From a phage: a stretch of DNA of 64,000 nucleotides. The notes under the pieces were generated by a model, which saw only the letters and a program-made list of their open reading frames with translations, did not search any database and had not been told where the DNA came from. Below are positions 2,536 through 59,446 of the stretch, piece after piece. The DNA is taken from assembly GCA_012813795.1 (NCBI GenBank), contig GCA_012813795.1_4087.1, one strand, 5' to 3'. Numbering within the stretch: the first letter of the stretch is position 1; each line of letters opens with the position of its first letter. A program made the translations under genes and the position numbers.

Positions 2536-2564
2536 ATTATACTGCTATTATTCAGTACTGTCAA
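2536..2564 (-). promoter_or_regulatory. sigma-70-type early promoter
   Basis: Minus strand reads TTGACA-N17-TATAAT followed by GTTTAT; spacer starts GTACTG. Confidence 0.7.
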
Positions 2565-2839
2565 TCGATATAAGTACCTTTTTTAACATCACAGACTTCT
2601 TCCATCCAATGTGGATTTTCGTTTTTATCAGTGAAGATTTGTTCTGCTTCTTCTTTTGTTTCAGCTAGGACGATACGGTCCCCATCATCCAAAACACGGA
2701 TACGATAAACTTTCAGTTCTTGTTTCTGCTCAAGGATATTACACAGTTCACGTGCTTTTTCTTCATCGCACTCCCCTTCATTAGCATAAAACCAGATTGC
2801 TTTTTTAATAAGGTCACGTTCTTCTTTGGTAAAAGACAT
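2561..2839 (-). CDS. hypothetical acidic protein (92 aa)
   Basis: ORF track; downstream of promoter 2885..2912. Confidence 0.55.
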   Translation of the reverse strand: MSFTKEERDLIKKAIWFYANEGECDEEKARELCNILEQKQELKVYRIRVLDDGDRIVLAETKEEAEQIFTDKNENPHWMEEVCDVKKGTYID

Positions 2840-2884
2840 AATATTTCCTATTATTTGTTAAAGTGGGTGTCGTTTGATATAAAC

Positions 2885-2912
2885 ATTATACAGTACTGAT
2901 ATCTTCTGTCAA
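2885..2912 (-). promoter_or_regulatory. sigma-70-type early promoter
   Basis: TTGACA-N16-TATAAT-GTTTAT; CAGTACTG abuts the -10. Confidence 0.65.
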
Positions 2913-3010
2913 GTATTAATCACCAAAAATCATCATATACCCAAACCAACAAACACAGATGACTAAAACTAACAATACCAACGATAATCTCTAAAGTCAC
3001 GTTTGCATCC

Positions 3011-3211
3011 TTAATCAATGATTTTATATTCACGATGACCATAGAAGCCAGCCTCAAGGATGTGATTACCATCAGCATCTTCCAAGTCCCAGCCACGGGA
3101 TGTTTCGGCAATAATAGTCATGATGTGACCTTTAGTGAAGGTTCCACTCATAGTAGATACGTCTTCAAGTAATTGAACCTGCTTACCAACATTTGTATTC
3201 GATTGAAACAT
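3011..3211 (-). CDS. hypothetical protein (66 aa)
   Basis: ORF track; preferred over overlapping frame 2920..3111. Confidence 0.45.
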   Translation of the reverse strand: MFQSNTNVGKQVQLLEDVSTMSGTFTKGHIMTIIAETSRGWDLEDADGNHILEAGFYGHREYKIID

Positions 3212-3222
3212 TTATTTTTCCT

Positions 3223-3481: not shown

Positions 3482-4276
3482 TTAAATTACATAGGGTTTA
3501 TAGTAATGAATCTCATTTGCTATTGCAGTGAAAACTTTCTTATTAAATCTTTCACCATAATCACGAAGTGATTCACCTTCTACGCTTTCAATAAAGTAAT
3601 TATATACTGGTAGTCGTGCACTGTCAATACCTATAAACGATTTCATGTAAATTTGTACTAAACGATTCATACCTGAATTTAAACATTCAACATCAAAGTG
3701 CTTGATACCTTTGTCTAAGTGCTTGAATGCATTGATGATACCACGCTTGAAATCACGCTCCATAGTACTGAATAGATTCTCAGGAAACACTGTAATCGGA
3801 GACATGGATTTAAGAATGTATGTATCTTTTGCATTCTTGATGTACTCAATGAAGCAGTAGTTTACATTAGGCTCAATTGAACGGTCTGCATTATGATACC
3901 AGTACTTAAACTCGCTGTACTCTGCGAACTTATGCTGGCGTAAGGCATTACAATCCTCACACAGTGCAGTCATGTTCTCTTTATCATTACCACCCTGAAG
4001 ACAGTCAAGTACATTATGGTCTAACGTCATGCGTACAAGGCGTTTCCCTTTAAGTACATAAGGTCTGAATTTATAACGGTCTTTAGTACTGTGCTTATGT
4101 AAAGTGAATACTACATTGGATTCACCACAACAATCACATTTAAAGCCGTCACGAGACATTACATGAATGAGTTTGCGAGTATTAGGTCCAAACTCAGATT
4201 TAGTAATATTATCCACAATTTCTGATGGTTGGTAATATTTTGAATTCAGTCGAATCAATTCATCGATAGTACTCAT
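3482..4276 (-). CDS. HNH-motif nuclease domain protein
   Basis: CDCCG...LDHNVLDCLQGGNDKENMTALCEDCNALR (Cys pairs flanking H-N-N); start moved to MSTIDE with GAGGA SD just after upstream stop. Confidence 0.65.
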   Translation of the reverse strand: MSTIDELIRLNSKYYQPSEIVDNITKSEFGPNTRKLIHVMSRDGFKCDCCGESNVVFTLHKHSTKDRYKFRPYVLKGKRLVRMTLDHNVLDCLQGGNDKENMTALCEDCNALRQHKFAEYSEFKYWYHNADRSIEPNVNYCFIEYIKNAKDTYILKSMSPITVFPENLFSTMERDFKRGIINAFKHLDKGIKHFDVECLNSGMNRLVQIYMKSFIGIDSARLPVYNYFIESVEGESLRDYGERFNKKVFTAIANEIHYYKPYVI

Positions 4277-4772: not shown

Positions 4773-4801
4773 ATTCTACGCGAATGATTAATAACTGTCA
4801 A
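4773..4801 (-). promoter_or_regulatory. sigma-70-type promoter
   Basis: TTGACA-N17-TAGAAT on minus strand. Confidence 0.6.
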
Positions 4802-8013: not shown

Positions 8014-8042
8014 ATTGTACTCCTATATTTCAGTACTGTCAA
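8014..8042 (-). promoter_or_regulatory. sigma-70-type promoter
   Basis: TTGACA-N17-TACAAT; spacer begins GTACTG. Confidence 0.65.
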
Positions 8043-8327: not shown

Positions 8328-8356
8328 ATTATATCCCTTAACACATTTTATGTCAA
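8328..8356 (-). promoter_or_regulatory. sigma-70-type promoter
   Basis: TTGACA-N17-TATAAT. Confidence 0.65.
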
Positions 8357-9725: not shown

Positions 9726-9754
9726 ATCTTATCACTTCACCTATAGCCTGTCAA
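9726..9754 (-). promoter_or_regulatory. sigma-70-type promoter
   Basis: TTGACA-N17-TAAGAT. Confidence 0.55.
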
Positions 9755-11376: not shown

Positions 11377-11404
11377 ATTATACTCAAAAATACAGGTCTG
11401 TCAA
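11377..11404 (-). promoter_or_regulatory. sigma-70-type promoter
   Basis: TTGACA-N16-TATAAT. Confidence 0.6.
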
Positions 11405-11469: not shown

Positions 11470-12627
11470 ATGTCTAGAACCATAGCTGATACCGGTGAAT
11501 ACAAGTTCGGTGAATGTGGTTATATCGTGGATGGTGCTTTACTAATCGATGGAACCAAATTAAAAAATATAAGAATTTACAGGCAGCGTAGTTATAAACT
11601 ATTTGATATTATAGATCCTGTAACAAACAAAATATATAGACGCGTACAAATTACTTCTTATGATAAGGTAGGAAATTTACTTAACTATAAAAAATCCGAT
11701 GATGAATTATTGGATGTTATTGCAAAGAATACTTTCTTTGTTCGTGGATACACTAATCATTTGAAACCTACAGATCCAACAGGGTTTGTAACTAAATTCC
11801 AATTACACAAAACGATATTTGGAAACTCCGATGTTACTTTTGATATGTACACACCAACTTGTTCAATTATTGATCGTGATATAGATAATATTTTAGTTAA
11901 TCCAGTTCATGTTGGGGATACTGAAATATCGGGTAAACTGTTCAATGCTGGACAAACCATCAACACAACAGGAATGACAATTACTGTAAAATTTTCAGAT
12001 GGGTCCGAGTATTCAACGAGTACAATAGTCAATGATGAATTCATTATAACAGTACCGGAAATTATGTCAACCGGAACTGCAACTATAACTCTTACGTCTG
12101 ATTTTTATAATACAAAAAGCGTTGATTTTAATATATTAGATGTTGGTGAGGATGACGGCTTAACCACTACTGTATCAGTAACTACATTCAGTACTGGGCC
12201 TGGTGATGTGTATAGTGCAAGAATCCCTGCTGATGTACATGGGCGTGGTAATAACTTAGCTATTCAGGTATATGATAATCATAATAATTTGGTATCTGCT
12301 GGCATTAATGTTAGCTCTACTGGTGATATTACAGTAACAATATATGATAATACACCTATAAAACTAAGTATATTGGGTAGTACATTACAAACATCTCCAT
12401 ATGTACAAAATGTCTCTTCTTCTGAATGGACACGCAATGGTGAAATGTATGAAATTAATATATCCAGTACTGGACACTTAAAAGAATTTGTTTTTGTTCA
12501 AGTATATGATAATAACAATGATGCAGTTCAATGTGAAATTCAGCTTGATGATGATGAGAATGTTACAATTACTTCTGTCGAAGCATTTGATGCAAAGATT
12601 GTAGTGTTTGGTTATAACAAACAATAA
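11470..12627 (+). CDS. beta-sandwich repeat protein (385 aa), possibly virion or surface associated
   Basis: Only plus-strand CDS; GAGGGG SD; internal repeat [IV]QVYDN-x-NN-x-V...G[DN][IV]T[VI]T occurs twice; terminator follows. Confidence 0.7.
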   Translation: MSRTIADTGEYKFGECGYIVDGALLIDGTKLKNIRIYRQRSYKLFDIIDPVTNKIYRRVQITSYDKVGNLLNYKKSDDELLDVIAKNTFFVRGYTNHLKPTDPTGFVTKFQLHKTIFGNSDVTFDMYTPTCSIIDRDIDNILVNPVHVGDTEISGKLFNAGQTINTTGMTITVKFSDGSEYSTSTIVNDEFIITVPEIMSTGTATITLTSDFYNTKSVDFNILDVGEDDGLTTTVSVTTFSTGPGDVYSARIPADVHGRGNNLAIQVYDNHNNLVSAGINVSSTGDITVTIYDNTPIKLSILGSTLQTSPYVQNVSSSEWTRNGEMYEINISSTGHLKEFVFVQVYDNNNDAVQCEIQLDDDENVTITSVEAFDAKIVVFGYNKQ

Positions 12628-15731: not shown

Positions 15732-15760
15732 ATTACATATAGAAACAATTTAAATGTCAA
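15732..15760 (-). promoter_or_regulatory. sigma-70-type promoter
   Basis: TTGACA-N17-TGTAAT. Confidence 0.5.
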
Positions 15761-15790: not shown

Positions 15791-16258
15791 TCACACTGTA
15801 CCCTTATTTGGAATCATTGCACTTAATCTTATTAAATCACGAATTTCTTCATATGTCAAGTCATGGATATCATGTAGAGTTTGAATCTGGAAGTACTGTT
15901 CTTCGGTTAATGGATGATAATTAGCACCAACTTCAATGTGACAGATTTCTGTGCTCTCAATAACTGAACTTAAATCCAAATTAACAGCATTAAATGGTGT
16001 TAAATGTAATGTAACACCACCGGAATTCACAATTACAGTGTATGTACGTTCGGTTCCCCTGTACATGTGTAGCCTCAGTGAGTGAATTTTCTCAAATGAA
16101 GTTGCAGCCCCATGAAGTTTATATGCATATATCTCAATGCTATATGAAGCATTCCATTGTGATGGATGATAACGGCACATCTTTTTTACCATCATGTCAA
16201 TTGCAGCACCCACCATACGACCCAAGTACTCACGATTAACTACTTGATCAAATCGCAT
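15791..16258 (-). CDS. EEYFQ-motif paralog family member
   Basis: LTEEQYFQIQTLHDIHDLTYEEIRDLI. Confidence 0.6.
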   Translation of the reverse strand: MRFDQVVNREYLGRMVGAAIDMMVKKMCRYHPSQWNASYSIEIYAYKLHGAATSFEKIHSLRLHMYRGTERTYTVIVNSGGVTLHLTPFNAVNLDLSSVIESTEICHIEVGANYHPLTEEQYFQIQTLHDIHDLTYEEIRDLIRLSAMIPNKGTV

Positions 16259-17571: not shown

Positions 17572-17600
17572 AGTATAACATTTGTGGCATTGAAAGTCAA
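17572..17600 (-). promoter_or_regulatory. sigma-70-type promoter abutting the terminator
   Basis: TTGACT-N17-TATACT; predicted start falls inside the 5' arm of hairpin 17535..17570. Confidence 0.5.
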
Positions 17601-18344: not shown

Positions 18345-18688
18345 TAATCAAACGTGATACATCTAGTATAGCGTTAATCTCTTCTAATGTCAAGTCACCA
18401 ATGTCATTTATCATTGAGTACTGAAACAGTGATTCTTCAGTGTAATTGCATTCTGGTACAGCGATAAGGATAGGCTGCTTGGATACGTCCAAAGTTATTT
18501 TAGCCATTGTGCTATATATATCAAATTGATATAATTGATTTTTGGAAGTATATGATATGTATATATTATTTGATTCAGATGGATGTACCAAGGTAAAACC
18601 ATCGTAACATAATAGTTTAATGTTCGGATCGTCAAAATTGCCTGTATAAAGGTTCTTTCGAACATCTTGTATTATACGTACTATTAGA

Positions 18689-19468: not shown

Positions 19469-19601
<133 letters not shown>

Positions 19602-20437: not shown

Positions 20438-22078
<1,641 letters not shown>

Positions 22079-22531: not shown

Positions 22532-23385
<854 letters not shown>

Positions 23386-25753: not shown

Positions 25754-25782
25754 ATTATATCAGTACTGGATAGTACTGTCAA
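25754..25782 (-). promoter_or_regulatory. sigma-70-type promoter
   Basis: TTGACA-N17-TATAAT; spacer holds two AGTACT copies and a TG extended -10. Confidence 0.7.
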
Positions 25783-30884: not shown

Positions 30885-32257
<1,373 letters not shown>

Positions 32258-35050: not shown

Positions 35051-35473
35051 TTACCCTTTCAATTGTTTCTCGATATGGAATGTATTGTATATCTTGTTGT
35101 ACACAGTGTCAATAATTTTCTTAACGTCTGCTAACTCTTCGACAGTTGTGCACACATCACTGATAGTACTTAACTGAAACAACTCTTCTTCAGTACTGTA
35201 CAGTGTTATATCAAATTTGTTGCGAAGTTCATCTTCGATAACGTATTGATTTGTGACAGTATATGATGCAATTTCAACATCCAACAACTTATCACCTTCA
35301 AAAACATTATAAATGAACACAAATGTTAGTTCTTCACTCTCATCATCACTGTAGCTTATATATACATTGTAATTTTCACCATGAAAATCAAGATTGTGCT
35401 CAAACCTATTATCAGGTACTAGTGAATCTATAGGCATTCCCTTTAACAAATCAAAACAATCTCTTGGGTTCAT
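35051..35473 (-). CDS. EEYFQ-motif paralog family member
   Basis: YSTEEELFQLSTISDV. Confidence 0.6.
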   Translation of the reverse strand: MNPRDCFDLLKGMPIDSLVPDNRFEHNLDFHGENYNVYISYSDDESEELTFVFIYNVFEGDKLLDVEIASYTVTNQYVIEDELRNKFDITLYSTEEELFQLSTISDVCTTVEELADVKKIIDTVYNKIYNTFHIEKQLKG

Positions 35474-37103: not shown

Positions 37104-37527
37104 CCAATTCTCCGAATTTGGTTAGAGCAAACACTTTTGCCTCATCATGCAGTTTGTGAATTAGTATGATATTATCATATGTTAAATCTAGTACATTGTC
37201 AACAAGTGAACGTTGAAATAGTATCTCTTCAGATGTGATTTCATGGATGTTTTCTATCTTAATTTCATTGAATGTATCAGTTTCATTTTCTCGCGTACTC
37301 ATGATCAACGTACCACTCGTTGAAATGTATGATATCTTGGTATCCACACCATCAATGGTTGCGTACAGGCGAATTATTTCATATGAATCAGTTAATCTTA
37401 CATTAACCTTAATTTCATCCTCTGTACAAAACCACACACTTTTAGCAAAGAAATTGACACGTACTTTCATATCTTTAAGTTTATTATTTTGGAAATATTT
37501 TAGTACTTTTTTGAATGATATAATCAT
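37093..37527 (-). CDS. EEYFQ-motif paralog family member
   Basis: ITSEEILFQRSLVDNVLDLTYDNI. Confidence 0.6.
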   Translation of the reverse strand: MIISFKKVLKYFQNNKLKDMKVRVNFFAKSVWFCTEDEIKVNVRLTDSYEIIRLYATIDGVDTKISYISTSGTLIMSTRENETDTFNEIKIENIHEITSEEILFQRSLVDNVLDLTYDNIILIHKLHDEAKVFALTKFGELDDK

Positions 37528-39347: not shown

Positions 39348-39679
39348 AAAACCTTCACATCACTACGTTTATTTCGTGCGTCTTTCTTTTCCTCATCAGT
39401 TCGTGTATCATCTAATTGTAACACAACTTCTTTAAGAATGTCAACATCAATTTCAGCTTCTACGTAATGAAAGTCATTGCGACCAAAAACATACTTCACT
39501 GCAACCCATACACGCTTGTACCATTTAAGAAAAGGATTCAAACGCATACTGACTGTACATTGACCAAGTTTATCATCACCGTGTTCTTCTGTCAAGTCAA
39601 ATTGTGCAATGTGAACACAATGTTCATTTTTATCACCACAAGTACAACGCAACATAAACTCTTTGCTATCTTTACTCAT
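39344..39679 (-). CDS. hypothetical protein (111 aa)
   Basis: ORF track. Confidence 0.5.
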   Translation of the reverse strand: MSKDSKEFMLRCTCGDKNEHCVHIAQFDLTEEHGDDKLGQCTVSMRLNPFLKWYKRVWVAVKYVFGRNDFHYVEAEIDVDILKEVVLQLDDTRTDEEKKDARNKRSDVKVL

Positions 39680-40098: not shown

Positions 40099-40261
40099 CA
40101 CGATCCTCATTACTGTTAATGTAATAGTAACAGACAATACAGTGTATTACCAATAAAATTAGTTCTATGATGTTAAGCATAACCACATGTGATTGTGGGA
40201 ACACCAGAGCCAATATCAACATTATAGTTGGAATGACGAATATTGTCAACTCTTTTTTCAT
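40085..40261 (-). CDS. possible 58-aa two-TM membrane protein
   Basis: My translation gives MKKELTIFVIPTIMLILALVF...; below track cutoff. Confidence 0.4.
   Translation of the reverse strand: MKKELTIFVIPTIMLILALVFPQSHVVMLNIIELILLVIHCIVCYYYINSNEDRDEVL
40221..40249 (-). promoter_or_regulatory. sigma-70-type promoter internal to the small membrane ORF
   Basis: TTGACA-N17-TATAAT. Confidence 0.55.
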
Positions 40262-44672: not shown

Positions 44673-45374
44673 TTAATAGTTCCCGCGTTCGTTGATTGCA
44701 TTTAAGCAATATGAAACCTGGATAGCTTCACGTGCTGCATCGAATAATGGGTGGTGAAGTTCTAGACCATAAAGACCATGATCAGCAACCATCTCCACAA
44801 ACTTTTTCAATTGTACATCAACAATGGAATCCATGTCAAATTTTTCATCTTCAGTTAGGCGATTCTTAACACTTCGGGCATTCTGTGGTGCATTATATTT
44901 CCACAATTCGCCCACACCAAACATTTTACGATGGTTTGCTTGAAGAATACTACAATCGAAGTGGCAGCCATTACCCCAAATTTCAATATTGTTCTCATTT
45001 CCATTAAGATCATAACGAAGTGAATTCCACAAATCAAGTACATTTTTTGTTTTATACAAATTGTTCTGACTACCGGAAATAATCTCAGGATCTGTCAACG
45101 TGAGTGTGCTAACTACTTCTTCATATGCACCTTTATGATCATTTTGACACATATTCATCCAAAAGTTCATTGAACCTGCATCAACTTTAAGACCAGCATC
45201 AATTTGTTTTTGGAATGGTAGTTTAACATATGCATAACGTGAGATATCTTTCATTGGGTTAGTTGGAACTAAAACAATTGCGTAATTTGGAATGATAATA
45301 TCATAACCACTACGTTCTGGAGTTCCGAAAGATTCAATATCAACTGCATAGTGTGTAACTTTATCTGCCATCAT
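44673..45374 (-). CDS. DEDDh 3'-5' exonuclease (233 aa)
   Basis: Exo I AVDIES, Exo II NGCHFDCSIL, Exo III HHPLFDAARE. Confidence 0.6.
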   Translation of the reverse strand: MMADKVTHYAVDIESFGTPERSGYDIIIPNYAIVLVPTNPMKDISRYAYVKLPFQKQIDAGLKVDAGSMNFWMNMCQNDHKGAYEEVVSTLTLTDPEIISGSQNNLYKTKNVLDLWNSLRYDLNGNENNIEIWGNGCHFDCSILQANHRKMFGVGELWKYNAPQNARSVKNRLTEDEKFDMDSIVDVQLKKFVEMVADHGLYGLELHHPLFDAAREAIQVSYCLNAINERGNY

Positions 45375-45391
45375 ATTATCCTTAGATAATT

Positions 45392-45426
45392 AATAAAATA
45401 TGTGCCCATTATACAATGGGCACATT
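45392..45426 (-). terminator. terminator hairpin after the TelA gene
   Basis: ATGTGCCCATT-GTAT-AATGGGCACAT followed by ATTTTATT. Confidence 0.55.
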
Positions 45427-45436
45427 TATATGTCAA
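45408..45436 (-). promoter_or_regulatory. sigma-70-type promoter embedded in the terminator hairpin
   Basis: TTGACA-N17-TATAAT; the -10 lies in the loop and 3' arm of hairpin 45400..45425. Confidence 0.55.
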
Positions 45437-46615: not shown

Positions 46616-46644
46616 ATTATACGAGCAACACACATTCATGTCAA
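46616..46644 (-). promoter_or_regulatory. sigma-70-type promoter
   Basis: TTGACA-N17-TATAAT-GTTTAT. Confidence 0.7.
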
Positions 46645-47811: not shown

Positions 47812-47840
47812 ATTCTATCTAACTTGATTAGTATTGTCAA
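47812..47840 (-). promoter_or_regulatory. sigma-70-type promoter
   Basis: TTGACA-N17-TAGAAT. Confidence 0.6.
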
Positions 47841-47866: not shown

Positions 47867-48685
47867 TTAGCACGTCCCTTTGTTGTTCTTCTCTCTGTAC
47901 CAGTTGAAACCCTTAACTGGTGGGTACTTCTCATCTTTAGGTGGCTCCGGCATATCATACACCGTTGCATTCCTAAATTTTAAAATGTAAACTTCCATAA
48001 GACGTATGATAGCATAGTTTAAACATTTCTGTGCTCTTTCTTTCCAAAAATGTTTATATGGTTCTGGACAGTTTAGATAGTCCAGTTTATACATACCCAT
48101 TGCTGCTTGTACAAATCTCTGTGCTGAAAATTTACGTTTGTCAACCTTACTGGCTCTGTACTGATCAGATGTCCAGCTTTGTACCCCAGGTAAATGACAA
48201 AACAAATCAAACTCTACCATAGAACTAAAATATTCATTATGACCGTGTAGTTCACCATAGAACAATGCCTCATTGACAGTCTCATATAATGAAAAATTCA
48301 TATGTATATGTTCATTATCAAAGATGTTCTTTAGTTCTTTGTACGTCTCTGGTACTGGTGGTTCAGGTAACAACTCACCAAATGTCTCAATGCACCAGAT
48401 TTTCCACAATCCTTTTGTGAATTGTACTTCACGTTCTCTATCACTGTCAATATAAAATGTTTTTTCATTAATGAAAACCTTTCGTGCCATATATGCTTTA
48501 AAGATTGCATCGGGATCGATATCATCACGTTTAATGTCATCCCATCCCTTACCAATCCTTGAAATCTCAAATCTACGCATATACATTCTACAAGCTAAAT
48601 CTTTTGTAGTACTGCGACGATACTTTTCATCCTGAACCAATTTAGTACTTTCATGTAGAGATTTCAACATATTTAAAATTCTCAT
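47867..48685 (-). CDS. hypothetical protein (272 aa)
   Basis: ORF track. Confidence 0.6.
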   Translation of the reverse strand: MRILNMLKSLHESTKLVQDEKYRRSTTKDLACRMYMRRFEISRIGKGWDDIKRDDIDPDAIFKAYMARKVFINEKTFYIDSDREREVQFTKGLWKIWCIETFGELLPEPPVPETYKELKNIFDNEHIHMNFSLYETVNEALFYGELHGHNEYFSSMVEFDLFCHLPGVQSWTSDQYRASKVDKRKFSAQRFVQAAMGMYKLDYLNCPEPYKHFWKERAQKCLNYAIIRLMEVYILKFRNATVYDMPEPPKDEKYPPVKGFNWYREKNNKGTC

Positions 48686-53487: not shown

Positions 53488-55875
53488 TTATATTATGTCA
53501 TTCTGTAAAGCAATTCTAAATGTATCATGTACATAACGTTCATGGTCCTGTGCAAAGTATCCAAATTCAACAGCAGTTACTTCGAATTCAGTACTAACCA
53601 TAGAACTATGCTCATTGTTTTGTAACAACATTTGGAAAAATGCTTCACCCTTACCAGGCAAACAGTATGCTACTGGAATGATAGGCATGAATTTCTTCTC
53701 AATACCATCTTCGATATATGGATGGTTCATGAAGCGTGGAACTGTGTCAATCATCTCATCACTTATGCCTGGTATAGCATCCACATATAGACCACGATTG
53801 ACTAAATCAGTTGGGTCTTTAACCAAGTTTGTTGTATCTTCACCAACAGCCTTATAGATGTTTTGGCGTAAACCAAACAACTCAGCAAGTAAACCATTAT
53901 CTACATTAGTGTAAATTCGAGGGTTGGTGGATACTACAACTTGTGTTCCTTCTGGATGAAGTTCTCTAAACACCAAATCATACAGAAGATTCCCTTTGTT
54001 GTCAAGTGCTGACATGATTTTATAATTACCAATAACCATCTTGAATTTACCATTGGGAATAGTAGCCCCTGATGGATCTATAATATTCTCACGGAGAACT
54101 TTTTTCAAATCACTTAAGTTGGTGTAATTATAGTTCTGATTTACAAAGTTTTCTTTCAATAGAATTCTAGGAACTTTCTGTAACCCATATCTATCATCAG
54201 ATTGACGATGGAATCCAAAATTAGCAAATGTTTGAGTACTGATGCATTTAAACCAATCACGCTCAAACTGTACCGATGGTACAATATGTGAACTCAAATG
54301 ATTTTGTCCCAACCCACGAACGATTTTTAATTTGAAATCACCAATAACACTACTACCCTCGGTGTCATACACTTCAACCTTGAAATTCAATTTTATATCA
54401 TCATTGGCACTAAAATCAGTACTTAATGCATATGCAGTTCCTACAAGATAACCGTCAGGGGTAAGGTCCAATCCATATTTAGTTATATCATCACCACCTG
54501 CCAATACACAAGATACTTGATTCTTACTATTAGTGAGTATTCGTGGGTATACCGTATGTCCGAAATATTCACCAACATGGATGGTTCCCAAGTCTGGATC
54601 GGTGATTATCTGTATAGATGAACCTTCTGCGGCGTTTTCCAAAAATCGGAACATACGTTTCTCACCAATAATACCACTACCTAAAGATACGTCATAATAA
54701 CCTAAATCATTCCAATCTGAACTTTTGAATAATGGTTTTATCATACCTTCATCATATTCACCACTAATAACATATGGATAAACAACGTTATCCCTTAACT
54801 GGTATAAATGGTTAGGTTTGGGTTTTTCATCAGTTGCAGCAATAGTAGATACATCATTTGGACATACCCACATTTGATATGCTTTGAAACGTTGGTCGAT
54901 TGCAAAACGTTCAGCGAGTGTAATGTATGTTTTAAGAATATCTACAATTTCAATCTTAAAGTAAACATCCGTTGGTTCGGATTCATGTAAGAATGTTTGT
55001 AAGAATTGCCCATTAGGGTTAAAGGAAAGACCACTTTTTGTTATCTTCCCAGTGTCATCAACTATGTTAACTTTAACTTCTTTATTAATTCCATCAACTG
55101 GAAATGCTAAATCATCAGGGCGTAGGTAAGCTGCTTTACCTGTAACGTGTCTTGTTGGTAAATCCTGTTCAGTTATATCCAGTAGGCGATACGCTGGAAA
55201 GAACACACGAGGACTAGTATCGGTCGCACTATCTACATTTGGCTGGTATGGACGTTTACGACCGAAGCCTTGAATGAACAAAGTACTGTCAGAACCATAT
55301 TCAATATCACCAATGCAATATAATCGATCGTCATCTGTGATAGTTAATCCAGGGGTTACCCATATTTCTTTACTATCAAAAGTTACTGTTGCTTTGTTTG
55401 CACGCAACAAACCAGATGGTGAAATGTTCCCAAAATGCATAACATTAACTGCCTGTAAATTGAAAACAACACTCTCAACGTTGTTAAATGTACCATCACG
55501 CTTACAATGCAACTTTAGATAATAAACATCTTCACTGATTATAGTACTTGGAAGATAAAAATTATTCTTTTGTATTCTACACTTATGTCTTCCATTTAAA
55601 AACTGGTTTCCAGTGGTTCCGTCCGATAGTGGGACTAAATTTCGTGGGTCATTACCAACAAATAATGAATAATGGTTTTCAGCGTTAAAAACATTACCAA
55701 CATTATCTAAACATTGTATAGTGAAAATCATCTCTAAGTATTCGTTTTCACTTAGTGTATAGCTATCACCTGTAGTTCCTTCTTTATTGATACTTAATCT
55801 AATAAGAATGTCAGATCCTTCTTGAATATATTGAGTATCAGCCTTTAAATCCCAATACGGGGTAAAAGATGCCAT
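53488..55875 (-). CDS. large hypothetical protein (795 aa), possibly a late/virion protein
   Basis: Long uninterrupted ORF; TATAAATA element 34 nt upstream; no motif I can name. Confidence 0.75.
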   Translation of the reverse strand: MASFTPYWDLKADTQYIQEGSDILIRLSINKEGTTGDSYTLSENEYLEMIFTIQCLDNVGNVFNAENHYSLFVGNDPRNLVPLSDGTTGNQFLNGRHKCRIQKNNFYLPSTIISEDVYYLKLHCKRDGTFNNVESVVFNLQAVNVMHFGNISPSGLLRANKATVTFDSKEIWVTPGLTITDDDRLYCIGDIEYGSDSTLFIQGFGRKRPYQPNVDSATDTSPRVFFPAYRLLDITEQDLPTRHVTGKAAYLRPDDLAFPVDGINKEVKVNIVDDTGKITKSGLSFNPNGQFLQTFLHESEPTDVYFKIEIVDILKTYITLAERFAIDQRFKAYQMWVCPNDVSTIAATDEKPKPNHLYQLRDNVVYPYVISGEYDEGMIKPLFKSSDWNDLGYYDVSLGSGIIGEKRMFRFLENAAEGSSIQIITDPDLGTIHVGEYFGHTVYPRILTNSKNQVSCVLAGGDDITKYGLDLTPDGYLVGTAYALSTDFSANDDIKLNFKVEVYDTEGSSVIGDFKLKIVRGLGQNHLSSHIVPSVQFERDWFKCISTQTFANFGFHRQSDDRYGLQKVPRILLKENFVNQNYNYTNLSDLKKVLRENIIDPSGATIPNGKFKMVIGNYKIMSALDNKGNLLYDLVFRELHPEGTQVVVSTNPRIYTNVDNGLLAELFGLRQNIYKAVGEDTTNLVKDPTDLVNRGLYVDAIPGISDEMIDTVPRFMNHPYIEDGIEKKFMPIIPVAYCLPGKGEAFFQMLLQNNEHSSMVSTEFEVTAVEFGYFAQDHERYVHDTFRIALQNDII

Positions 55876-55920: not shown

Positions 55921-55949
55921 GGAGGAAGGAAGACCCATAGGGTCTTCCA
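55921..55949 (-). terminator. terminator-like hairpin
   Basis: GGAAGACCC-TAT-GGGTCTTCC followed by a T-rich tract, after the topoisomerase gene. Confidence 0.45.
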
Positions 55950-55956
55950 TTATATA

Positions 55957-57369
55957 TTAATCTTCAGACTTAGGTGTAAAGTCCATTTTTAGTAATTCTT
56001 GTAGTTCTTCTTTATAGATATTCCAGATTTTATCTTGGTTATTAAGTAAATCATTATAACTATCCATTAGATCTAGATTATCTTGAATGTCTTTCAGTAC
56101 TACATCGTAATTATCTTTCGTCCAGCGATAAGATGGGAAGTTTACAATACTCTGGATATTCTCAGATGTAGCTTCGATTTCAGTATTAAGCGAAGTTACA
56201 AATTCAACCATTTCAGCACGGTTTGCAAAGCCTTTTACTTTACCAATCATGTCATTATCAAAACACTCTTTGATGAGAATCTTATAACGAACTTCGGCTG
56301 CACAGTCTTCCAGTTTCTTCTCATATCGCTTCACATAGTATTTGAAACGGAAATTTACGAAATCTTTAATCAGGTCAAGTGTACTGTCATATACACGAAC
56401 TTTACCATTTTCACCAAGAACAGTTAACAATTGAGTCATTTTCTTATTCAATCCAAAATACTCAATTACATCAGCTTCGGTCCATTTTTGAGAAATTCCG
56501 CGTGGTAGTTTGATCGTGATATCAATAACATCAGTACTATCATTATCGTAATCACGAATATCACCATCATCACTCATCTTGATTAGTTTTTCGATAAACT
56601 TTTCAATACTATAATTGGGTGGAAGACCTGTCACTTTAACAGTACTTGCGTCAATTACCTGTGCTTTACCATAAAATTCATATTTGTTTTCGTCTAGTTT
56701 AGTTACTATATCACTAGCACCAACCGATGCATAATATGGTGTCATTTCTTTAAGGGGTTTCCCTTCAATTGCACGAATACAGTTCTTTATTACATCCTCA
56801 ATCTTATGTGGAAGAATTGTACTCTTATACCCTACTGACATACTATCATTACCAAACAATGCTAATGGGATGATAGGTAGGAAGTGTACTGGTTCCATTG
56901 TAGTACCATCATAGTTCTCTTTCATTGGAATTATATCCATATCACGTAGAACTAATGCTTCAGTCGTTTTTGTCTTTTTGACGTAGGTATAACGAGCAGA
57001 TGCCGGAGTACTGTTAACTTGTGTCCCGAAACCACCACGCTTACCAATCAGTGGGTAGTTGTTAGCAACTGGACTAGCTAGGTTTTGTAATGTTCCTGAT
57101 GCAGATGTGTCACCATGAACGTAAATCCCATCACTGATCATACGACCTGCACATGAAACAGTTTTAATCTCCCCACTGATTTTGGATAATGTGAAGATTG
57201 CTTTACGTTGAGAACTCTTGAGTCCGTCAATCCCTGGGATAGCACGGTCAAGTGTGTACATTGAGTATTCTAATGATGTAGTATTGACATAATCTGAACT
57301 TTTATAATCAAGTAAAGTTAGAGTTAATTCATCAACATTTGTATTAGTGTTTTTCTTACTTTTAGCCAT
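55957..57369 (-). CDS. type II DNA topoisomerase, DNA-cleavage subunit (GyrA/ParC N-terminal-like; T4 gp52-type), 470 aa
   Basis: LDRAIPGIDGLKSSQRKAIFT; active-site Tyr context PASARYTYVK. Confidence 0.85.
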   Translation of the reverse strand: MAKSKKNTNTNVDELTLTLLDYKSSDYVNTTSLEYSMYTLDRAIPGIDGLKSSQRKAIFTLSKISGEIKTVSCAGRMISDGIYVHGDTSASGTLQNLASPVANNYPLIGKRGGFGTQVNSTPASARYTYVKKTKTTEALVLRDMDIIPMKENYDGTTMEPVHFLPIIPLALFGNDSMSVGYKSTILPHKIEDVIKNCIRAIEGKPLKEMTPYYASVGASDIVTKLDENKYEFYGKAQVIDASTVKVTGLPPNYSIEKFIEKLIKMSDDGDIRDYDNDSTDVIDITIKLPRGISQKWTEADVIEYFGLNKKMTQLLTVLGENGKVRVYDSTLDLIKDFVNFRFKYYVKRYEKKLEDCAAEVRYKILIKECFDNDMIGKVKGFANRAEMVEFVTSLNTEIEATSENIQSIVNFPSYRWTKDNYDVVLKDIQDNLDLMDSYNDLLNNQDKIWNIYKEELQELLKMDFTPKSED

Positions 57370-57417
57370 TCCATTGTCTCTTTGTTAAGCGGGGAACACC
57401 ATGTCCCCCTTATTACA

Positions 57418-59382
57418 TTATTCCATCCAGTTTTTACGATCATCAGCACGTTTCTTGTTGAAAATCAAATCTAATGTTTCACCAAGACGACCGTCATCAG
57501 TAATTGCTACTGCAACACTATTCGTAAATGCATCGCGGAAGTTACTTTTTTCGAGTGTTCCTAAACCTTTCGCACGAGTTGCTTTCCACCCTTTCCAATC
57601 TTCAGGAATATATTCATGGACGTTATGACCATAAAAATACTTAGATTCCTTACCTTTCTCCAAGATAATAAATGGAGTTTTGAATACGTATACAAACGGA
57701 TTATCAGGATCTTGGAATAATTCGGGCCAGAATTTGTACAAGAAGTTACAAACTAGTGCACCAATGTTCTTACCATCCTCATCTTCGTCCGCACAGATAT
57801 ATAGCTTACCGTAATTCAAATCAGCACGGTCAGCTTTAACTCCAGGGACCAAGTTGATGCTTGCCATTATATCATGCAATGCCATAGAATCCATTAATTC
57901 TTTGGTTTTCTCATTCCCACTAACGTTCATAATCTTACCACGCAATGGGAGGATACCATGAATACTAGGAATACGAGCACTTGCCATGTTGGAAATAGCA
58001 GAGTCACCTTCCGCAACCAATAGAATACATTGTGAACGGTCAGTTCCAGTACTATCAAGTAGTTTTGCAACTTTACCTTTCAAAAGTTTCTTGGCAAGGC
58101 GACGGTCTTCTTCTGCGTCTTTCTTATTAGTACGGGCAGCACAACGTTCAAAAATCTCATCAACCCATTCTTTATTTTTCTTGACCAATTCATCAAACCA
58201 GTCAGTACTCATAGCTTGCTGAATAGGACGAATTACATTTTCATTAGTCAACTTAGATTTAATCTGTGAGTTGAATGATGGTGCTTTCATTGTAGTTACA
58301 TTGTAAATCAACAAACCTTCTTCAATATCAGAACGGTTTGGTTTCATCTTACGCTTCTTCGCTTCTTTCTCTAATGCAGTTCCTACCCCTAAAGAGAAGA
58401 ATTTCTTGAAGGTATCTAGATGTGTACCACCATCAAATGCTGGAGCATTATTCACAAGACCATGCATATGGAAGTTTGTGTTCATACCAGATACAGCATT
58501 AGGTACAATATAAAACGTACTATTGAAATTGAATGATTCATCTTTAACATTCAATGACATTAGTTTTGAAGCATTAAAGAGTGCCTTTTCTGTGCTTCCT
58601 TTAATTGCAATACGTTTACCATTCAAGAAGATTTTGTATGTTGGGTTCGCTGCTGCCATTTCTTTTAGAATACTATAAAGTAATTCAGTTGGTAGCTTGC
58701 GATTAGGAAATACTTCTTTACTTAGGGTAAAGCGAATAGTTGTACCAGTTTTATCGGATTGTACTTTTCGAATAGTTGGTTCATGTACATGAAGTTCAGG
58801 GAACATAATTGTACCTTCTTCAAACTTCTGTGTATATTTGTACATACCATCATAACCGTCATTACTGGATTGCGTTTTATATGGACGTCCGGTTCGGTGA
58901 ATTTCAAGTTCTGCTTTAGAGCTAACAATCATAGCCACAGAACCACCTAGACCGTTTTGACCGATTGTTTCATCACGCTTAGAATCATCAAAGTTACGAC
59001 CAGTTTTAGTTTCAGTCATTACCATCGTACAGAGGTTTTTCTCATACTCTGGGACATAATCAATCGGAATACCACGACCATTATCACTGATTTCGAAGGA
59101 AAGGTCTTCTTCATTGAAATCAACTTTCAGTACTGGTTCTTTCGTACCAGCTTTTTTGAATTCATCAAGACTGTTATCAATAATTTCACGAGTTGCAGTA
59201 AGAATTGCAGGAACCCATTCCATATTTTTTACAGCATAATCATTTTCACCAAAAATCAGTACTTGACTTTCGTGAATAGAACGAGAACCAAGATACATCT
59301 CAGTACGTAGACGAGCATGTTGATAATCGTTTAGACGTTGAACGTCATGTTCTTGTAGAACAGCACTTTCTTTCTTAGCCAT
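57418..59382 (-). CDS. type II DNA topoisomerase, ATPase/Toprim subunit (GyrB-like; T4 gp39+60-type), 654 aa
   Basis: REIIDNSLDE, SDNGRGIP, QNGLGGS, Toprim LLVAEGDSA and ICADEDEDGKNI. Confidence 0.9.
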   Translation of the reverse strand: MAKKESAVLQEHDVQRLNDYQHARLRTEMYLGSRSIHESQVLIFGENDYAVKNMEWVPAILTATREIIDNSLDEFKKAGTKEPVLKVDFNEEDLSFEISDNGRGIPIDYVPEYEKNLCTMVMTETKTGRNFDDSKRDETIGQNGLGGSVAMIVSSKAELEIHRTGRPYKTQSSNDGYDGMYKYTQKFEEGTIMFPELHVHEPTIRKVQSDKTGTTIRFTLSKEVFPNRKLPTELLYSILKEMAAANPTYKIFLNGKRIAIKGSTEKALFNASKLMSLNVKDESFNFNSTFYIVPNAVSGMNTNFHMHGLVNNAPAFDGGTHLDTFKKFFSLGVGTALEKEAKKRKMKPNRSDIEEGLLIYNVTTMKAPSFNSQIKSKLTNENVIRPIQQAMSTDWFDELVKKNKEWVDEIFERCAARTNKKDAEEDRRLAKKLLKGKVAKLLDSTGTDRSQCILLVAEGDSAISNMASARIPSIHGILPLRGKIMNVSGNEKTKELMDSMALHDIMASINLVPGVKADRADLNYGKLYICADEDEDGKNIGALVCNFLYKFWPELFQDPDNPFVYVFKTPFIILEKGKESKYFYGHNVHEYIPEDWKGWKATRAKGLGTLEKSNFRDAFTNSVAVAITDDGRLGETLDLIFNKKRADDRKNWME

Positions 59383-59416
59383 TTTAATTCCTTTTAGTGT
59401 CTCTGTGTCTTGTGAT

Positions 59417-59446
59417 ATTGTATCACGAAAAGTTTATTTGTCTCAA
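59417..59446 (-). promoter_or_regulatory. sigma-70-type promoter with extended -10
   Basis: TTGAGA-N18-TACAAT preceded by TGA. Confidence 0.45.

What the first reader, a model, noticed from the sequence alone, without database searches (positions are those of the whole stretch)
2536..59446. Unusually uniform early-promoter family: TTGACA-N16/17-TATAAT followed by GTTT(A/G)T
At least 25 minus-strand promoters match both sigma-70 hexamers at 5-6 of 6 positions with 16-17-bp spacers. Positions: 2536, 2885, 4773, 8014, 8328, 9726, 11377, 15732, 17572, 19497, 21074, 21675, 22536, 23271, 25754, 30075, 34371, 34443, 40221, 45408, 46616, 47812 and others.

Many also share the initial-transcribed/discriminator sequence GTTTAT or GTTTGT directly after the -10 (2536, 2885, 22536, 34443, 46616). 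Several overlap the stop codon of the preceding gene. The conserved post -10 block is not required by host sigma-70, so it may be a phage-specific control element for timing, pausing, or recognition by the phage sigma.
Basis: seen in the sequence. Interest (0 to 1): 0.4.

Follow-up and report, generated by a model that had tools for sequence, protein, structure and literature searches.

The report
Jumbo-phage early promoters for host polymerase
The window is the early-gene region of a 355-kb E. coli jumbo phage and holds some 30-45 near-perfect promoters for the host RNA polymerase, which is expected for such phages; the GTTTAT block marks only a conserved sub-family of them, and a far more unusual palindrome (AGTACT) turned up along the way.

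Summary
All 22 listed coordinates carry TTGACA-N16/17-TATAAT-like sites on the minus strand. With at most one mismatch there are 33 minus-strand sites against 1 on the plus strand, where about 2 are expected by chance.

The window is 98% identical to Escherichia phage A4, an Asteriusvirus of the Rak2-like jumbo phages. RpoD-type early promoters have already been predicted for relatives of this clade (CBB, PA5oct). The promoter family is therefore an ordinary member of a known kind.

GTTT(A/G)T after the -10 is enriched: 5 of 33 promoters, 0.035 expected. It is not family-wide, because the discriminator carries about 0 bits across 33 window promoters or 119 A4 promoters. It marks a sub-family built on a clade-conserved cassette:
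- AAAAAAGTA-C-TTG(A/C)CA-N9-AGTACTG-TATAAT-(A)GTTT(A/T)YAT, followed by a 5' hairpin and a ribosome-binding site.
- The cassette occurs in A4, 121Q, fEgEco12, RaK2 and Serratia phage BF.

The phage sigma lacks the sigma-70 residues that read the -10, so host sigma-70 is the likely reader. The block most likely tunes initiation, but this is inferred.

In passing, AGTACT (TCAGTACTGA) is five-fold enriched across the whole clade, in genomes that have purged 22 other palindromic hexamers.

The parts
2536..2564 (-). Promoter TTGACA-17-TATAAT followed by GTTTATATCAAA. CAGTACTG overlaps the -35. The stop codon TGA of ORF 2561-2839 lies inside the -35.
   Evidence: identical in 121Q
2885..2912 (-). 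Promoter TTGACA-16-TATAAT followed by GTTTATATCAAA. CAGTACTG abuts the -10. Cassette type.
   Evidence: conserved in 121Q and fEgEco12
3599..3627 (-). Perfect-consensus promoter with a 17-bp spacer, inside the 3' part of an ORF, 131 nt before the next start codon.
4773..4801 (-). Promoter TTGACA-17-TAGAAT, intergenic.
   Evidence: conserved in 121Q and fEgEco12
8014..8042 (-). Promoter TTGACA-17-TACAAT. The -10 lies inside a terminator-like hairpin (8005-8025). CAGTACTG overlaps the -35.
8328..8356 (-). Perfect-consensus promoter with a 17-bp spacer. The stop codon TGA of the upstream ORF lies in the -35.
9726..9754 (-). Weaker candidate, TTGACA-17-TAAGAT (4 of 6 in the -10).
11377..11404 (-). 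Perfect-consensus promoter with a 16-bp spacer, intergenic, 28 nt before a start codon.
12043..12070 (-). Perfect-consensus promoter with a 16-bp spacer, antisense inside the plus-strand structural gene 11470-12627.
15732..15760 (-). Promoter TTGACA-17-TGTAAT, intergenic.
15831..15859 (-). TTGACA-17-TTTAAT inside an ORF. The TTGACA encodes part of a D-L-T peptide motif shared by paralogues, so its status is ambiguous.
17572..17600 (-). Candidate TTGACT-17-TATACT, immediately upstream of a strong terminator hairpin (17544-17570).
18365..18393 (-). TTGACA-17-TATACT inside an ORF (D-L-T paralogue motif), 44 nt before the next start codon.
19497..19524 (-). Perfect-consensus promoter with a 16-bp spacer, upstream of tRNA-Thr (19131-19204).
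21074..21102 (-). Promoter TTGACT-17-TATAAT. Its -10 ends 10 nt before the tRNA-Ser/Met/Asn cluster (20725-21063).
21675..21702 (-). Weak candidate TTGACT-16-TGCAAT. Its spacer is the same as in 22536 and nearly the same as in 21074 (one C-to-T change in the palindrome), i.e. a duplicated cassette.
22536..22563 (-). Promoter TTGACT-16-TATAAT followed by GTTTGTATC. CAGTACTG abuts the -10.
   Evidence: conserved in 121Q and fEgEco12
23271..23298 (-). Promoter TGGACA-16-TATAAT. Its -10 ends 10 nt before tRNA-Ser(tga) (23171-23260).
25754..25782 (-). Perfect-consensus promoter with a 17-bp spacer. The spacer holds two AGTACT copies 10 bp apart.
28520..28547 (-). TTGACA-16-TATACT inside an ORF.
30075..30103 (-). 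Promoter TTGACA-17-GATAAT. The -10 lies inside a terminator-like hairpin (30068-30091).
30487..30515 (-). TTGACA-17-TATGAT inside an ORF, 60 nt before the next start codon.
31884..31965 (-). Two tandem candidates, TTGAAA-17-TATAAT (31937) and TTGACA-17-TACAAT (31884), inside an ORF.
34371..34399 (-). Promoter TTGACA-17-TACAAT, intergenic, in the leader of the C5-methylase gene.
34443..34471 (-). Promoter TTGACG-17-TATAAT followed by GTTTGTATCAGA, intergenic.
35084..35112 (-). TTGACA-17-TACAAT at the 3' end of an ORF, 37 nt before the next start codon.
37174..37202 (-). TTGACA-17-TATGAT at the 3' end of an ORF, 70 nt before the next start codon.
39415..39444 (-). TTGACA-18-TACAAT at the 3' end of an ORF, 67 nt before the next start codon.
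40221..40249 (-). Perfect-consensus promoter with a 17-bp spacer, overlapping a short ORF.
44810..44839 (-). TTGACA-18-TACAAT inside an ORF, 147 nt before the next start codon.
45408..45436 (-). Perfect-consensus promoter. The -10 lies inside a terminator hairpin (45400-45425, -16.8 kcal/mol).
46616..46644 (-). Perfect-consensus promoter followed by GTTTATCACAGAG. The -10 and GTTTAT sit in the loop of a hairpin (-14.3 kcal/mol).
47812..47840 (-). Promoter TTGACA-17-TAGAAT directly after a terminator (47854-47881).
48421..48450 (-). TTGACA-18-TACAAT deep inside an ORF (645 nt to the next start codon). Function doubtful.
53977..54005 (-). TTGACA-17-TATGAT deep inside an ORF (745 nt to the next start codon). 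Function doubtful.
59417..59446 (-). Candidate TTGAGA-18-TACAAT directly after a terminator (59452-59478), upstream of the topoisomerase II large-subunit gene.

Best explanation
The sites are early promoters of a Rak2-like (Asteriusvirus) jumbo phage, read by the host's own RNA polymerase with sigma-70.

What they look like and drive:
- They match the consensus almost perfectly in both hexamers.
- They have 16-18-bp spacers, mostly 16 or 17.
- Many are preceded by an A-rich stretch resembling a proximal UP subsite (AAAAAAGTA).
- They sit at terminator-promoter junctions or in the last ~150 nt of the preceding gene.
- They drive the many small early genes, the phage sigma-factor gene and the tRNA genes.

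Where GTTT(A/G)T fits:
- It is not a family-wide element. It is the T-rich discriminator of one promoter sub-family.
- That sub-family is built on a cassette conserved across the clade: A-tract-GTA-C-TTG(A/C)CA-N9-AGTACTG-TATAAT-(A)GTTT(A/T)(C/T)AT..., usually followed by a G-rich 5' hairpin and a ribosome-binding site.
- In this cassette the A of the (C/T)AT lies 7-8 nt after the -10, which is where E. coli polymerase normally starts.

Inferred, not shown:
- The A/T-rich discriminator and fixed start context help a promoter that binds polymerase very tightly to melt, pick one start site and escape.
- The cassette then spread by duplication together with its small genes.
For: Shown:
- Strand-specific excess of near-consensus sites far above shuffles.
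- Enrichment in intergenic DNA: 16 of 33 sites lie in the 10.6% of the strand that is non-coding.
- Two promoters end exactly 10 nt before mature tRNA 5' ends.
- The -10 hexamers are 92-93% conserved against 121Q and fEgEco12, compared with 76-78% for spacers.
- In the whole A4 genome there are 119 sites on the coding strand and 10 on the other. They concentrate in the regions of small unknown ORFs and are rare in the structural modules (with annotation).
- The cassette recurs nearly unchanged in A4, 121Q, fEgEco12, RaK2, Serratia phage BF and jumbo-sized IMG/VR contigs, while the middle of the spacer varies.
- 14 of 18 AGTACTGTATAAT in A4 are followed by (A/G)?GTTT.
- The phage sigma lacks the sigma-70 residues that read the -10.

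From the literature:
- RpoD-like promoters with an UP-like element, clustered among short early ORFs next to the phage sigma gene, were predicted in phage CBB (PMC5259590).
- The initial transcribed sequence strongly modulates productive initiation at the escape-limited T5 N25 promoter (PMC12464699, abstract).
Against: - There is no transcription start-site or expression data for this phage, so activity, start site and timing are all inferred.
- Across all promoters the discriminator is no more conserved than aligned intergenic DNA (0.78-0.82 against 0.84-0.86). A general functional constraint on it is therefore not shown.
- Members of the sub-family often share spacers as well (for example 21074, 21675 and 22536), so part of the similarity is simple duplication.
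- 17 of the 33 sites lie inside ORFs. Some coincide with a conserved D-L-T peptide motif in paralogues (15831, 18365) and may be by-products of protein conservation.
- The AGTACTG element is not explained by any known sigma-70 contact.
Confidence: 0.72

Rival explanations
1. Operator model. The AGTACT(G) palindromes that overlap the 5' edge of the -35 and lie 9 nt after it, possibly together with the GTTT block, are binding sites for a phage-encoded dimeric DNA-binding protein. This protein switches the cassette-type early promoters off, or on, at a set time. The same protein would also bind the roughly 900 other AGTACT sites in the genome.
For: - AGTACT starts at -7/-8 relative to the -10 in 20 of 119 A4 promoters, where about 0.6 are expected even at the genome's high density. 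It starts at -30 in 5 more.
- Its distance from the -35 is fixed at 9 nt for both 16- and 17-bp spacers.
- In cassettes carrying both copies the two AGTACT start 20 bp apart (read from the cassette sequences listed).
- The flanks are symmetric out to about +/-5 (T-rich on the left, A-rich on the right; consensus TCAGTACTGA), as expected for a dimer.
- The motif is enriched in every Rak2-like phage tested, whatever the host, but not in T4.
- Sites are positionally conserved: 31 of 47 against 39% for all hexamers.
- It co-occurs with GTTT (odds ratio 10).
Against: - No candidate binding protein was identified. None of the 127 window ORFs has a Pfam helix-turn-helix domain.
- Most AGTACT sites are inside genes, far from promoters.
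- Only a minority of promoters carry the motif.
- GTTT itself shows no dyad symmetry with AGTACTG.
- This model is compatible with the main explanation rather than exclusive of it.
Confidence: 0.3
2. Pure descent. GTTT(A/G)T has no function of its own. It is carried along because the sub-family promoters are recent copies of one ancestral cassette that duplicated with its small genes.
For: - Identical or near-identical spacers occur among copies: aaatagttcagtactg at 22536 and 21675, with a one-base variant at 21074. Several spacers are repeated twice in the A4 left end.
- Family-wide information at these positions is about zero.
- Discriminator conservation equals the intergenic background.
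Against: - The block persists next to the -10 in RaK2 and Serratia phage BF, whose sigma proteins are only 42% and 33% identical to this phage's, while the mid-spacer and flanks differ.
- Promoters 2536 and 2885 share GTTTATATCAAA but have different spacers.
Confidence: 0.2
3. Phage-sigma model. The post -10 block lets the phage-encoded sigma-70-family factor recognise these promoters.
For: - A sigma-70-family gene lies in the window (5360-6322; Pfam regions 2, 3 and 4).
- The block is conserved within the clade that carries this sigma.
Against: - The promoters are perfect host sigma-70 sites.
- The phage sigma has TS..M..Y where sigma-70 has WW..Q..T in region 2.3/2.4, and its region 4.2 did not align. 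It should therefore read different elements.
- In phage CBB a separate promoter class (-35 TGAAACG) was described alongside the RpoD-like class. That motif is absent from the coding strand of this window.
- The sigma gene itself lies in this promoter-dense early region, so sigma-70-type promoters must fire before it exists.
Confidence: 0.05
4. Pause model. GTTTAT(AT) acts as a sigma-70-dependent promoter-proximal pause or attenuation signal.
For: TATAAT-GTT-TATATC contains a second, weaker -10-like hexamer (TATATC) 3 nt after the first in 2536 and 2885.
Against: - That hexamer would span about -3 to +3, not the +1 to +25 transcribed region where sigma-dependent pause elements act (established knowledge from lambda PR').
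- It is absent from the GTTTGT variants and from the GTTTTACAT/AGTTTACAT variants.
Confidence: 0.04

Closest known systems
RpoD-like early promoters predicted in Rak2-like jumbo phages (Pectobacterium phage CBB, PMC5259590; Pseudomonas phage PA5oct, 10.1101/679506)
   Same: - The same phage clade.
- TTGACA/TATAAT-type promoters, preceded by an UP-like A-rich element in CBB.
- In CBB, clustered in the region of short hypothetical ORFs that also holds the phage sigma-factor gene; interpreted as early, host-polymerase promoters.
[quoted passage not shown]
   Different: - Those papers list 18 promoters (CBB) and 32 promoters (PA5oct). As far as the main text searched here shows, they do not describe the AGTACTG spacer element, the GTTT discriminator or the cassette.
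- The density here is higher: about 33 in 64 kb and 119 in the A4 genome.
Bacteriophage T5 early promoters (N25, P25, P26 and others) and T7 A1. Details are recalled from memory (Gentz and Bujard 1985; Kammerer et al. 1986), except the N25 initial-transcribed-sequence effect, which comes from PMC12464699.
   Same: - Very strong host sigma-70 promoters of a lytic phage.
- Sequence similarity extends beyond the hexamers into an A/T-rich upstream region and into the discriminator and initial transcribed region, which affects late steps of initiation.
- The cassette's CATCGAG/CATCAAGGGG start region resembles the T7 A1 start ATCGAGAGGG.
   Different: - Unrelated phages.
- The conserved downstream sequence differs.
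- No AGTACT palindrome is known there.
Bacteriophage T4 early promoters (from memory: Liebig and Rueger 1989; Wilkens and Rueger 1996)
   Same: - About 40 strong sigma-70 promoters in front of clusters of small early genes.
- An extended consensus, including an upstream A-tract.
- T4 is a distant relative of Rak2-like phages.
   Different: - The T4 -35 consensus is GTTTAC-like rather than TTGACA.
- T4 shows no AGTACT enrichment: 8 observed against 5.3 expected in 25 kb.

Membership tests
Bacterial sigma-70 (housekeeping) promoter | -35 hexamer close to TTGACA and -10 hexamer close to TATAAT | tested here: met
   11 exact sites and 33 with at most 1 mismatch in 12 positions on the minus strand
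Bacterial sigma-70 (housekeeping) promoter | Spacer of 17 +/- 1 bp | tested here: met
   All 22 listed sites have 16 or 17 bp; the other candidates have 16-18 bp
Bacterial sigma-70 (housekeeping) promoter | Co-oriented with, and shortly upstream of, genes; more frequent than chance | tested here: met
   33 sites on the coding strand against 1 on the other. 16 lie in the 10.6% intergenic fraction. 24 of 33 lie within 150 nt of the next start codon. Two end 10 nt before tRNA genes.
Bacterial sigma-70 (housekeeping) promoter | Transcription starts 6-9 nt downstream of the -10 and depends on sigma-70 holoenzyme | not testable with these tools
   No RNA data are available for this phage. Only the sequence context (C/T)A 7-8 nt after the -10 in the cassette promoters was seen.
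Early-promoter class of Rak2-like phages (as predicted for CBB and PA5oct) | Located in the block of short unknown ORFs that contains the phage sigma-factor gene | tested here: met
   The window equals A4 ~262-326 kb, which holds sigma gene A4_181 and mostly hypothetical ORFs. About 20 Pfam-annotatable proteins among 127 ORFs (30 families matched).
Early-promoter class of Rak2-like phages (as predicted for CBB and PA5oct) | A-rich UP-like element upstream of the -35 | tested here: inconclusive
   A at position -5 from the -35 in 23 of 33 promoters, and weak A-richness at -9 to -7. A clear AAAAAAGTA is present only in the cassette sub-family.
Early-promoter class of Rak2-like phages (as predicted for CBB and PA5oct) | Expressed early in infection | not testable with these tools
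   No time-course data.
Divergent (putative phage-sigma) promoters of CBB/GAP32: -35 TGAAACG with a TATA -10 | TGAAACG about 17 bp upstream of a -10 | tested here: not met
   TGAAACG occurs 0 times on the minus strand of the window.
Sigma-70-dependent promoter-proximal pause element (lambda PR' type) | A -10-like hexamer on the non-template strand within the initially transcribed region | tested here: not met
   The only -10-like repeat (TATATC) lies 3 nt after the -10, upstream of or across the start, and only in 2 of the 5 sites.

The most novel reading that the evidence does not exclude
The phage-specific element in these promoters is not GTTTAT but the palindrome AGTACT (full form TCAGTACTGA).

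Proposed reading: a so far unidentified protein, encoded by all Rak2-like jumbo phages, reads this palindrome as a dimer. At cassette-type early promoters, two copies bracket the -35 with starts 20 bp apart. The same protein also binds about 900 further sites spread through genes in all reading frames. It would then combine temporal control of early promoters with a genome-wide role, such as marking, compacting or protecting phage DNA.

What the evidence shows:
- The genome has purged 22 of the 64 palindromic hexamers and every GCGC, yet AGTACT is five-fold enriched.
- The enrichment holds in phages of E. coli, Klebsiella, Pectobacterium and Xanthomonas, but not in T4.
- Individual sites are conserved in position.

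Probability: 0.35. Interest if true: 0.7.

Novelty: new variant of a known kind. Interest (0 to 1): 0.35.

Why it matters
The promoter family itself only confirms that this jumbo phage, like its relatives, starts infection with the host's sigma-70 polymerase. That is useful for annotating the phage's roughly 120 transcription units, but it is not surprising.

The conserved cassette (UP subsite, -35, AGTACTG, -10, GTTT discriminator, 5' hairpin) is a ready-made set of natural variants. It could be used to study how near-consensus promoters avoid being trapped at the escape step. It could also serve as a parts list of strong promoters that may work in several hosts.

The AGTACT palindrome, if it proves to be a protein-binding site, would point to an unknown clade-wide regulator or genome-organising factor in a group of phages in which over 80% of genes have no known function.

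Tried and rejected
- The loose consensus scan (at least 9 of 12 matches) shows no enrichment: 97, 104 and 88 found against about 98, 97 and 92 expected. Only the top of the score range (at least 11 of 12) is informative.
- SlmA-binding sites (GTGAGTACTCAC, recalled from memory) were considered for AGTACT and rejected. GAGTACTC is the rarest of the 16 flanked 8-mers, at 4 of 922.
- A LexA box was considered for TACTGTATAAT... and rejected, because there is no CAG 10 nt after the CTG (read from the sequences).
- An extended -10 (TGnTATAAT) was considered for AGTACTG-TATAAT and rejected. The TG is one position too close, and the motif keeps register with the -35, not the -10.
- A 5-methylcytosine deamination signature at AGTACT was looked for and not seen. 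AGTATT/AATACT is at 0.91 of expectation.
- A codon-usage explanation for AGTACT was rejected. The counts are 46, 29 and 46 in the three frames, plus 25 in intergenic DNA.
The Sharanji paper lists a HaeIII-type (GGCC) modification methylase in that related phage, though its orthology to the window's gene was not checked. GGCC is not purged: 113 observed against 157 expected.
- There is no sharp spacing periodicity between AGTACT copies.
- Literature searches for CAGTACTG, and for AGTACT with phage terms, gave nothing relevant. The RaK2 genome paper does not mention promoters.
- Pfam on all 127 window ORFs found no helix-turn-helix candidate.
- PHROGs gave 'unknown function' for most genes downstream of the GTTT promoters.
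- Rfam found only the five tRNAs.

Full report
**Identity of the window.**
- Window 2000-12000 is 98.3% identical to Escherichia phage A4 (ON286972, 355,528 bp, Asteriusvirus) and about 84% identical to 121Q, PBECO4 and their relatives.
- The window is the reverse complement of A4 at about 262-326 kb. All but one of its genes lie on the minus strand.
- It runs from the topoisomerase II and clamp-loader genes through about 100 mostly unknown small ORFs and five tRNA genes to a sigma-70-family gene.
- Of 127 ORFs called here, only about 20 have a Pfam match (30 families matched in all).

**Check of the promoter observation.**
- Exact TTGACA-N16-18-TATAAT occurs 11 times, all on the minus strand; 0.14 are expected.
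- Allowing one mismatch in the 12 hexamer positions gives 33 minus-strand sites against 1 plus-strand site. Allowing two gives 67 against 22.
- I shuffled codons within genes and bases within intergenic gaps as a control. It expects 1.6 coding and 0.26 intergenic sites at <=1 mismatch, against 17 and 16 observed. At <=2 mismatches it expects 24.6 and 3.5, against 46 and 21 observed.
- About 30 of the <=1-mismatch sites, and roughly 40 sites overall, are therefore in excess of chance.
- The built-in consensus scan shows no enrichment at its loose threshold. Its top tier (at least 11 of 12 matches) holds 31 minus-strand sites and 1 plus-strand site.
Twenty have at least 5 of 6 matches in both hexamers. 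Sites 9726 and 21675 have a 4-of-6 -10.
- Nine candidates overlap the stop codon of the preceding ORF. Three of these use the TGA inside TTGACA.

**Support for function.**
- Sixteen of the 33 sites have their -10 in the 10.6% of the strand that is intergenic, and 24 lie within 150 nt of the next start codon.
- Promoters 21074 and 23271 end 10 nt before the mature 5' ends of tRNA genes.
- For promoters with an alignable orthologue in 121Q or fEgEco12, the -10 is 92-93% conserved and the -35 region 86-87%. The spacer is 76-78% conserved.
- In the complete A4 genome there are 119 sites on the coding strand against 10 on the other. They are dense at 0-90 kb and 270-340 kb, where the small unknown ORFs lie, and sparse in the structural modules (with annotation).

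**Check of the GTTT(A/G)T observation.**
- The five named promoters do carry the block. That is 5 of 33 against 0.035 expected (P = 3e-10).
- TATAATGTTT occurs 8 times on the minus strand and never on the plus strand, with about 0.4 expected.
- The block is nevertheless not a feature of the family. Across the 33 window promoters the six positions after the -10 carry at most 0.08 bit each. Across 119 A4 promoters they carry at most 0.15 bit.
- Across orthologues the discriminator (0.78-0.82 identity) is no better conserved than aligned intergenic DNA (0.84-0.86).

**What the block belongs to.**
- Listing all A4 promoters shows a sub-family, about 25 copies strong at the left end of the genome (A4 6-25 kb, outside the window).
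- Its form is AAAAAAGTA-C-TTG(A/C)CA-N9-AGTACTG-TATAAT-(A)GTTT(A/T)(C/T)AT(C/A)(A/G)AGGGG..., followed by a G-rich hairpin, a ribosome-binding site and a tiny ORF.
- The window's GTTTATATCAAA (2536, 2885), GTTTGTATC (22536, 34443) and GTTTATCACAGAG (46616) are variants of it.
- In A4, GTTT at offset 0 or 1 after the -10 co-occurs with AGTACTG beside the -10 (9 of 19 against 8 of 100; odds ratio 10; P = 1e-4).
- 14 of 18 AGTACTGTATAAT in A4 are followed by (A/G)?GTTT.
- The 17-mer AGTACTGTATAATGTTT is found in IMG/VR only in contigs of jumbo size or fragments of them. These include contigs whose lengths match the RaK2 (345,809 bp; five of the fetched stretches), 121Q (348,532 bp) and Serratia phage BF (357,154 bp) records.
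- In those copies the upstream GTA-C-TTG(A/C)CA and the downstream (T/A)N(C/T)AT are again present, while the middle of the spacer differs.
- The A of (C/T)AT lies 7-8 nt after the -10, which is the normal start position for E. coli polymerase.
- AAAAAAGTA equals the proximal UP-subsite consensus AAAAAARNR. I recall this from Estrem et al. 1999; it was not checked here.

**Who reads these promoters.**
- The phage sigma (window 5360-6322) has Pfam regions 2, 3 and 4.
- Aligned to group-1 sigmas, its region 2.3/2.4 reads KFITYATTSVYMTMYNES where they read KFSTYATWWIRQAITRAI. The tryptophan pair and the Q and T that contact the -10 are replaced, and region 4.2 did not align.
- Taken with the perfect sigma-70 hexamers, host sigma-70 is the likely reader. 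This is an inference.
- The second promoter class reported for CBB (-35 TGAAACG) is absent from the coding strand of the window.

**Mechanism, with what is shown and what is inferred.**
- Shown: the sequence family, its strand and position bias, its conservation, and the cassette structure.
- Inferred: these are early promoters used by unmodified host holoenzyme. This rests on the CBB prediction of RpoD-like promoters with an UP-like element in the early region (PMC5259590) and on TTGAC/TATAATA motifs identified around start sites in PA5oct (10.1101/679506).
- Also inferred: promoters with two perfect hexamers and an UP subsite bind polymerase tightly and tend to be limited at escape. At T5 N25 the initial transcribed sequence strongly modulates productive initiation (PMC12464699).
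- A T-rich, easily melted discriminator and a fixed YA start is the most economical reading of the GTTT block.
- Duplication of the cassette explains part of the similarity. The spacer aaatagttcagtactg recurs at 22536 and 21675, and with one base changed at 21074.
- Persistence of the block in RaK2 and BF argues that descent is not the whole story. Their sigma proteins are 42% and 33% identical to this phage's.

**Promoter-terminator packing.**
- Several promoters share sequence with terminators. At 8014, 30075 and 45408 the -10 lies inside a terminator-like hairpin followed by a T-rich tail. The predicted energies are -11.6, -12.8 and -16.8 kcal/mol, with z-scores of -3.8 to -4.4.
- At 46616 the -10 and GTTTAT lie in the loop of a -14.3 kcal/mol hairpin.
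- A transcript arriving from upstream would form the full hairpin. A transcript starting at the promoter would contain only its 3' arm.
- Outside the window (A4 329-339 kb, and also in 121Q, fEgEco12, CBB and, as the variant TTGACAtaagtcaaccc, RaK2) the sequence GGTTGACTTCGGTCAGCCCTTTTTGC-TATAAT fuses a terminator stem with the -35.

**The AGTACT palindrome (found in passing).**
- AGTACT is the most over-represented hexamer of the window: 146 copies against 28.9 expected under an order-2 Markov model (z = 21.8). It occurs in all three reading frames and in intergenic DNA.
- The full consensus TCAGTACTGA occurs 9 times in the window against 0.07 expected. It occurs 55 times in A4.
- A4 holds 922 AGTACT, at 11-78 per 10 kb. 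The density is highest where cassette promoters are densest.
- AGTACT is also the top hexamer in every Rak2-like relative sampled, but not in T4:

| Phage | AGTACT observed | Expected |
|---|---|---|
| 121Q | 120 | 22.5 |
| RaK2 | 114 | 18.9 |
| CBB | 132 | 26.3 |
| fEgEco12 | 114 | 26.3 |
| Xanthomonas phage XbC2 | 81 | 16.2 |
| T4 | 8 | 5.3 |

- Sites are conserved in position. Of 47 window sites alignable to 121Q, 31 are intact, against 39% for all hexamers.
- In promoters the motif sits at fixed places: 9 nt after the -35 in 20 of 119 A4 promoters, and overlapping the 5' edge of the -35 in 5 of 119.
- By contrast, 22 of the 64 palindromic hexamers are absent from the A4 genome, with a summed expectation of 596. 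The tetramer GCGC is also absent, with 188 expected.
- I found no mention of any of this in the searchable literature.
- The reader of the motif is unknown.

**Verdict.** The promoter family is real and ordinary for this clade. The GTTT block is real but belongs to a sub-family cassette, and its function is inferred rather than shown. Recognition by the phage sigma is unlikely. The AGTACT palindrome is the unexpected feature and deserves its own follow-up.

Noticed in passing
Whole window, e.g. TCAGTACTGA at 10638, 15547, 17083, 17851, 19645, 19765, 38568, 44139, 50774; also A4 (L002-L009), L010-L014: The palindrome AGTACT (consensus TCAGTACTGA) is the most over-represented hexamer. There are 146 copies in the window against ~29 expected, and 922 in A4. 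It occurs in all reading frames and in intergenic DNA, and sites are positionally conserved against 121Q. It is enriched in every Rak2-like phage sampled (hosts E. coli, Klebsiella, Pectobacterium, Xanthomonas) but not in T4. It sits at fixed positions in cassette-type promoters. Its reader is unknown, and no literature was found.
   Followed up: partly
Whole window and the whole A4 genome (L002-L009): Extreme palindrome purge. 22 of the 64 palindromic hexamers (e.g. GGTACC, CCATGG, CTGCAG, CAGCTG, GCATGC, GGATCC) and the tetramer GCGC are completely absent from the 355-kb A4 genome. Their summed expectations are ~596 and 188. The 22 hexamers are also absent from the window. GATC is at half of expectation.
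   Followed up: partly
window 8005-8025, 30068-30091, 45400-45425, 46590-46632 (minus strand): Terminator-like hairpins followed by T-rich tails that contain the -10 hexamer of the next promoter in their stem or loop. The predicted energies are -11.6 to -16.8 kcal/mol, and no shuffle folds as well. Read-through transcripts would form the hairpin; transcripts started at the promoter would not.
   Followed up: partly
L003:29150-29200, 33440-33490, 35905-35955, 36635-36685, 38625-38675 (A4 329-339 kb); L010:29432, 40013; L012:22995, 23532: A recurring fused element, GGTTGACTTCGGTCAGCCCTTTTTGC-TATAAT. A terminator stem-loop contains the -35 (TTGACT) and its T-tract forms the 18-bp spacer. It is conserved from A4 to CBB.
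   Followed up: no
L004:6000-25000 (A4 left end, outside the window): An array of about 25 near-identical early cassettes. Each has an A-tract, GTAC, TTGCA/TTGACA, AGTACTG, TATAAT, GTTTTACAT, then a G-rich 5' hairpin, a ribosome-binding site and an ORF of 40-110 codons. It has the highest AGTACT density in the genome (62-78 per 10 kb).
   Followed up: partly
window 32273-34171 (minus): The C5 cytosine DNA methylase gene is interrupted by an intein with Hint and LAGLIDADG homing-endonuclease domains (Pfam).
   Followed up: no
window 5360-6322 (minus): The phage sigma-70-family protein has regions 2, 3 and 4. However, it replaces the conserved WW..Q..T of region 2.3/2.4 by TS..M..Y, so it probably reads a different -10 from the host sigma.
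   Followed up: partly
window 12043-12070 (minus), inside plus-strand gene 11470-12627: A perfect-consensus promoter points antisense through the only plus-strand gene of the window, a virion structural protein. It is a possible early antisense transcript.
   Followed up: no
window 4709-5359: A 651-nt stretch with no ORF of 50 or more codons on the coding strand, downstream of the sigma gene. Rfam finds nothing there.
   Followed up: no
window 14839-14867, 15831-15859, 18365-18393: Promoter-like sites inside paralogous ORFs of ~120-155 codons, where GAC-TTG-ACA encodes a shared D-L-T..E(E/L) peptide motif. Promoter and protein constraints cannot be separated here.
   Followed up: no
window 2561-2839 (minus): This 92-codon ORF is annotated in A4 as a 'sigma-70 family RNA polymerase sigma factor'. 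It has no Pfam match and only an unknown-function PHROG. It is flanked by the two GTTTATATCAAA promoters.
   Followed up: partly
window 21063-21074 and 23260-23271: Two tRNA transcription units begin with the -10 ending exactly 10 nt before the mature tRNA 5' end. This implies leaders of only about 3-4 nt.
   Followed up: no
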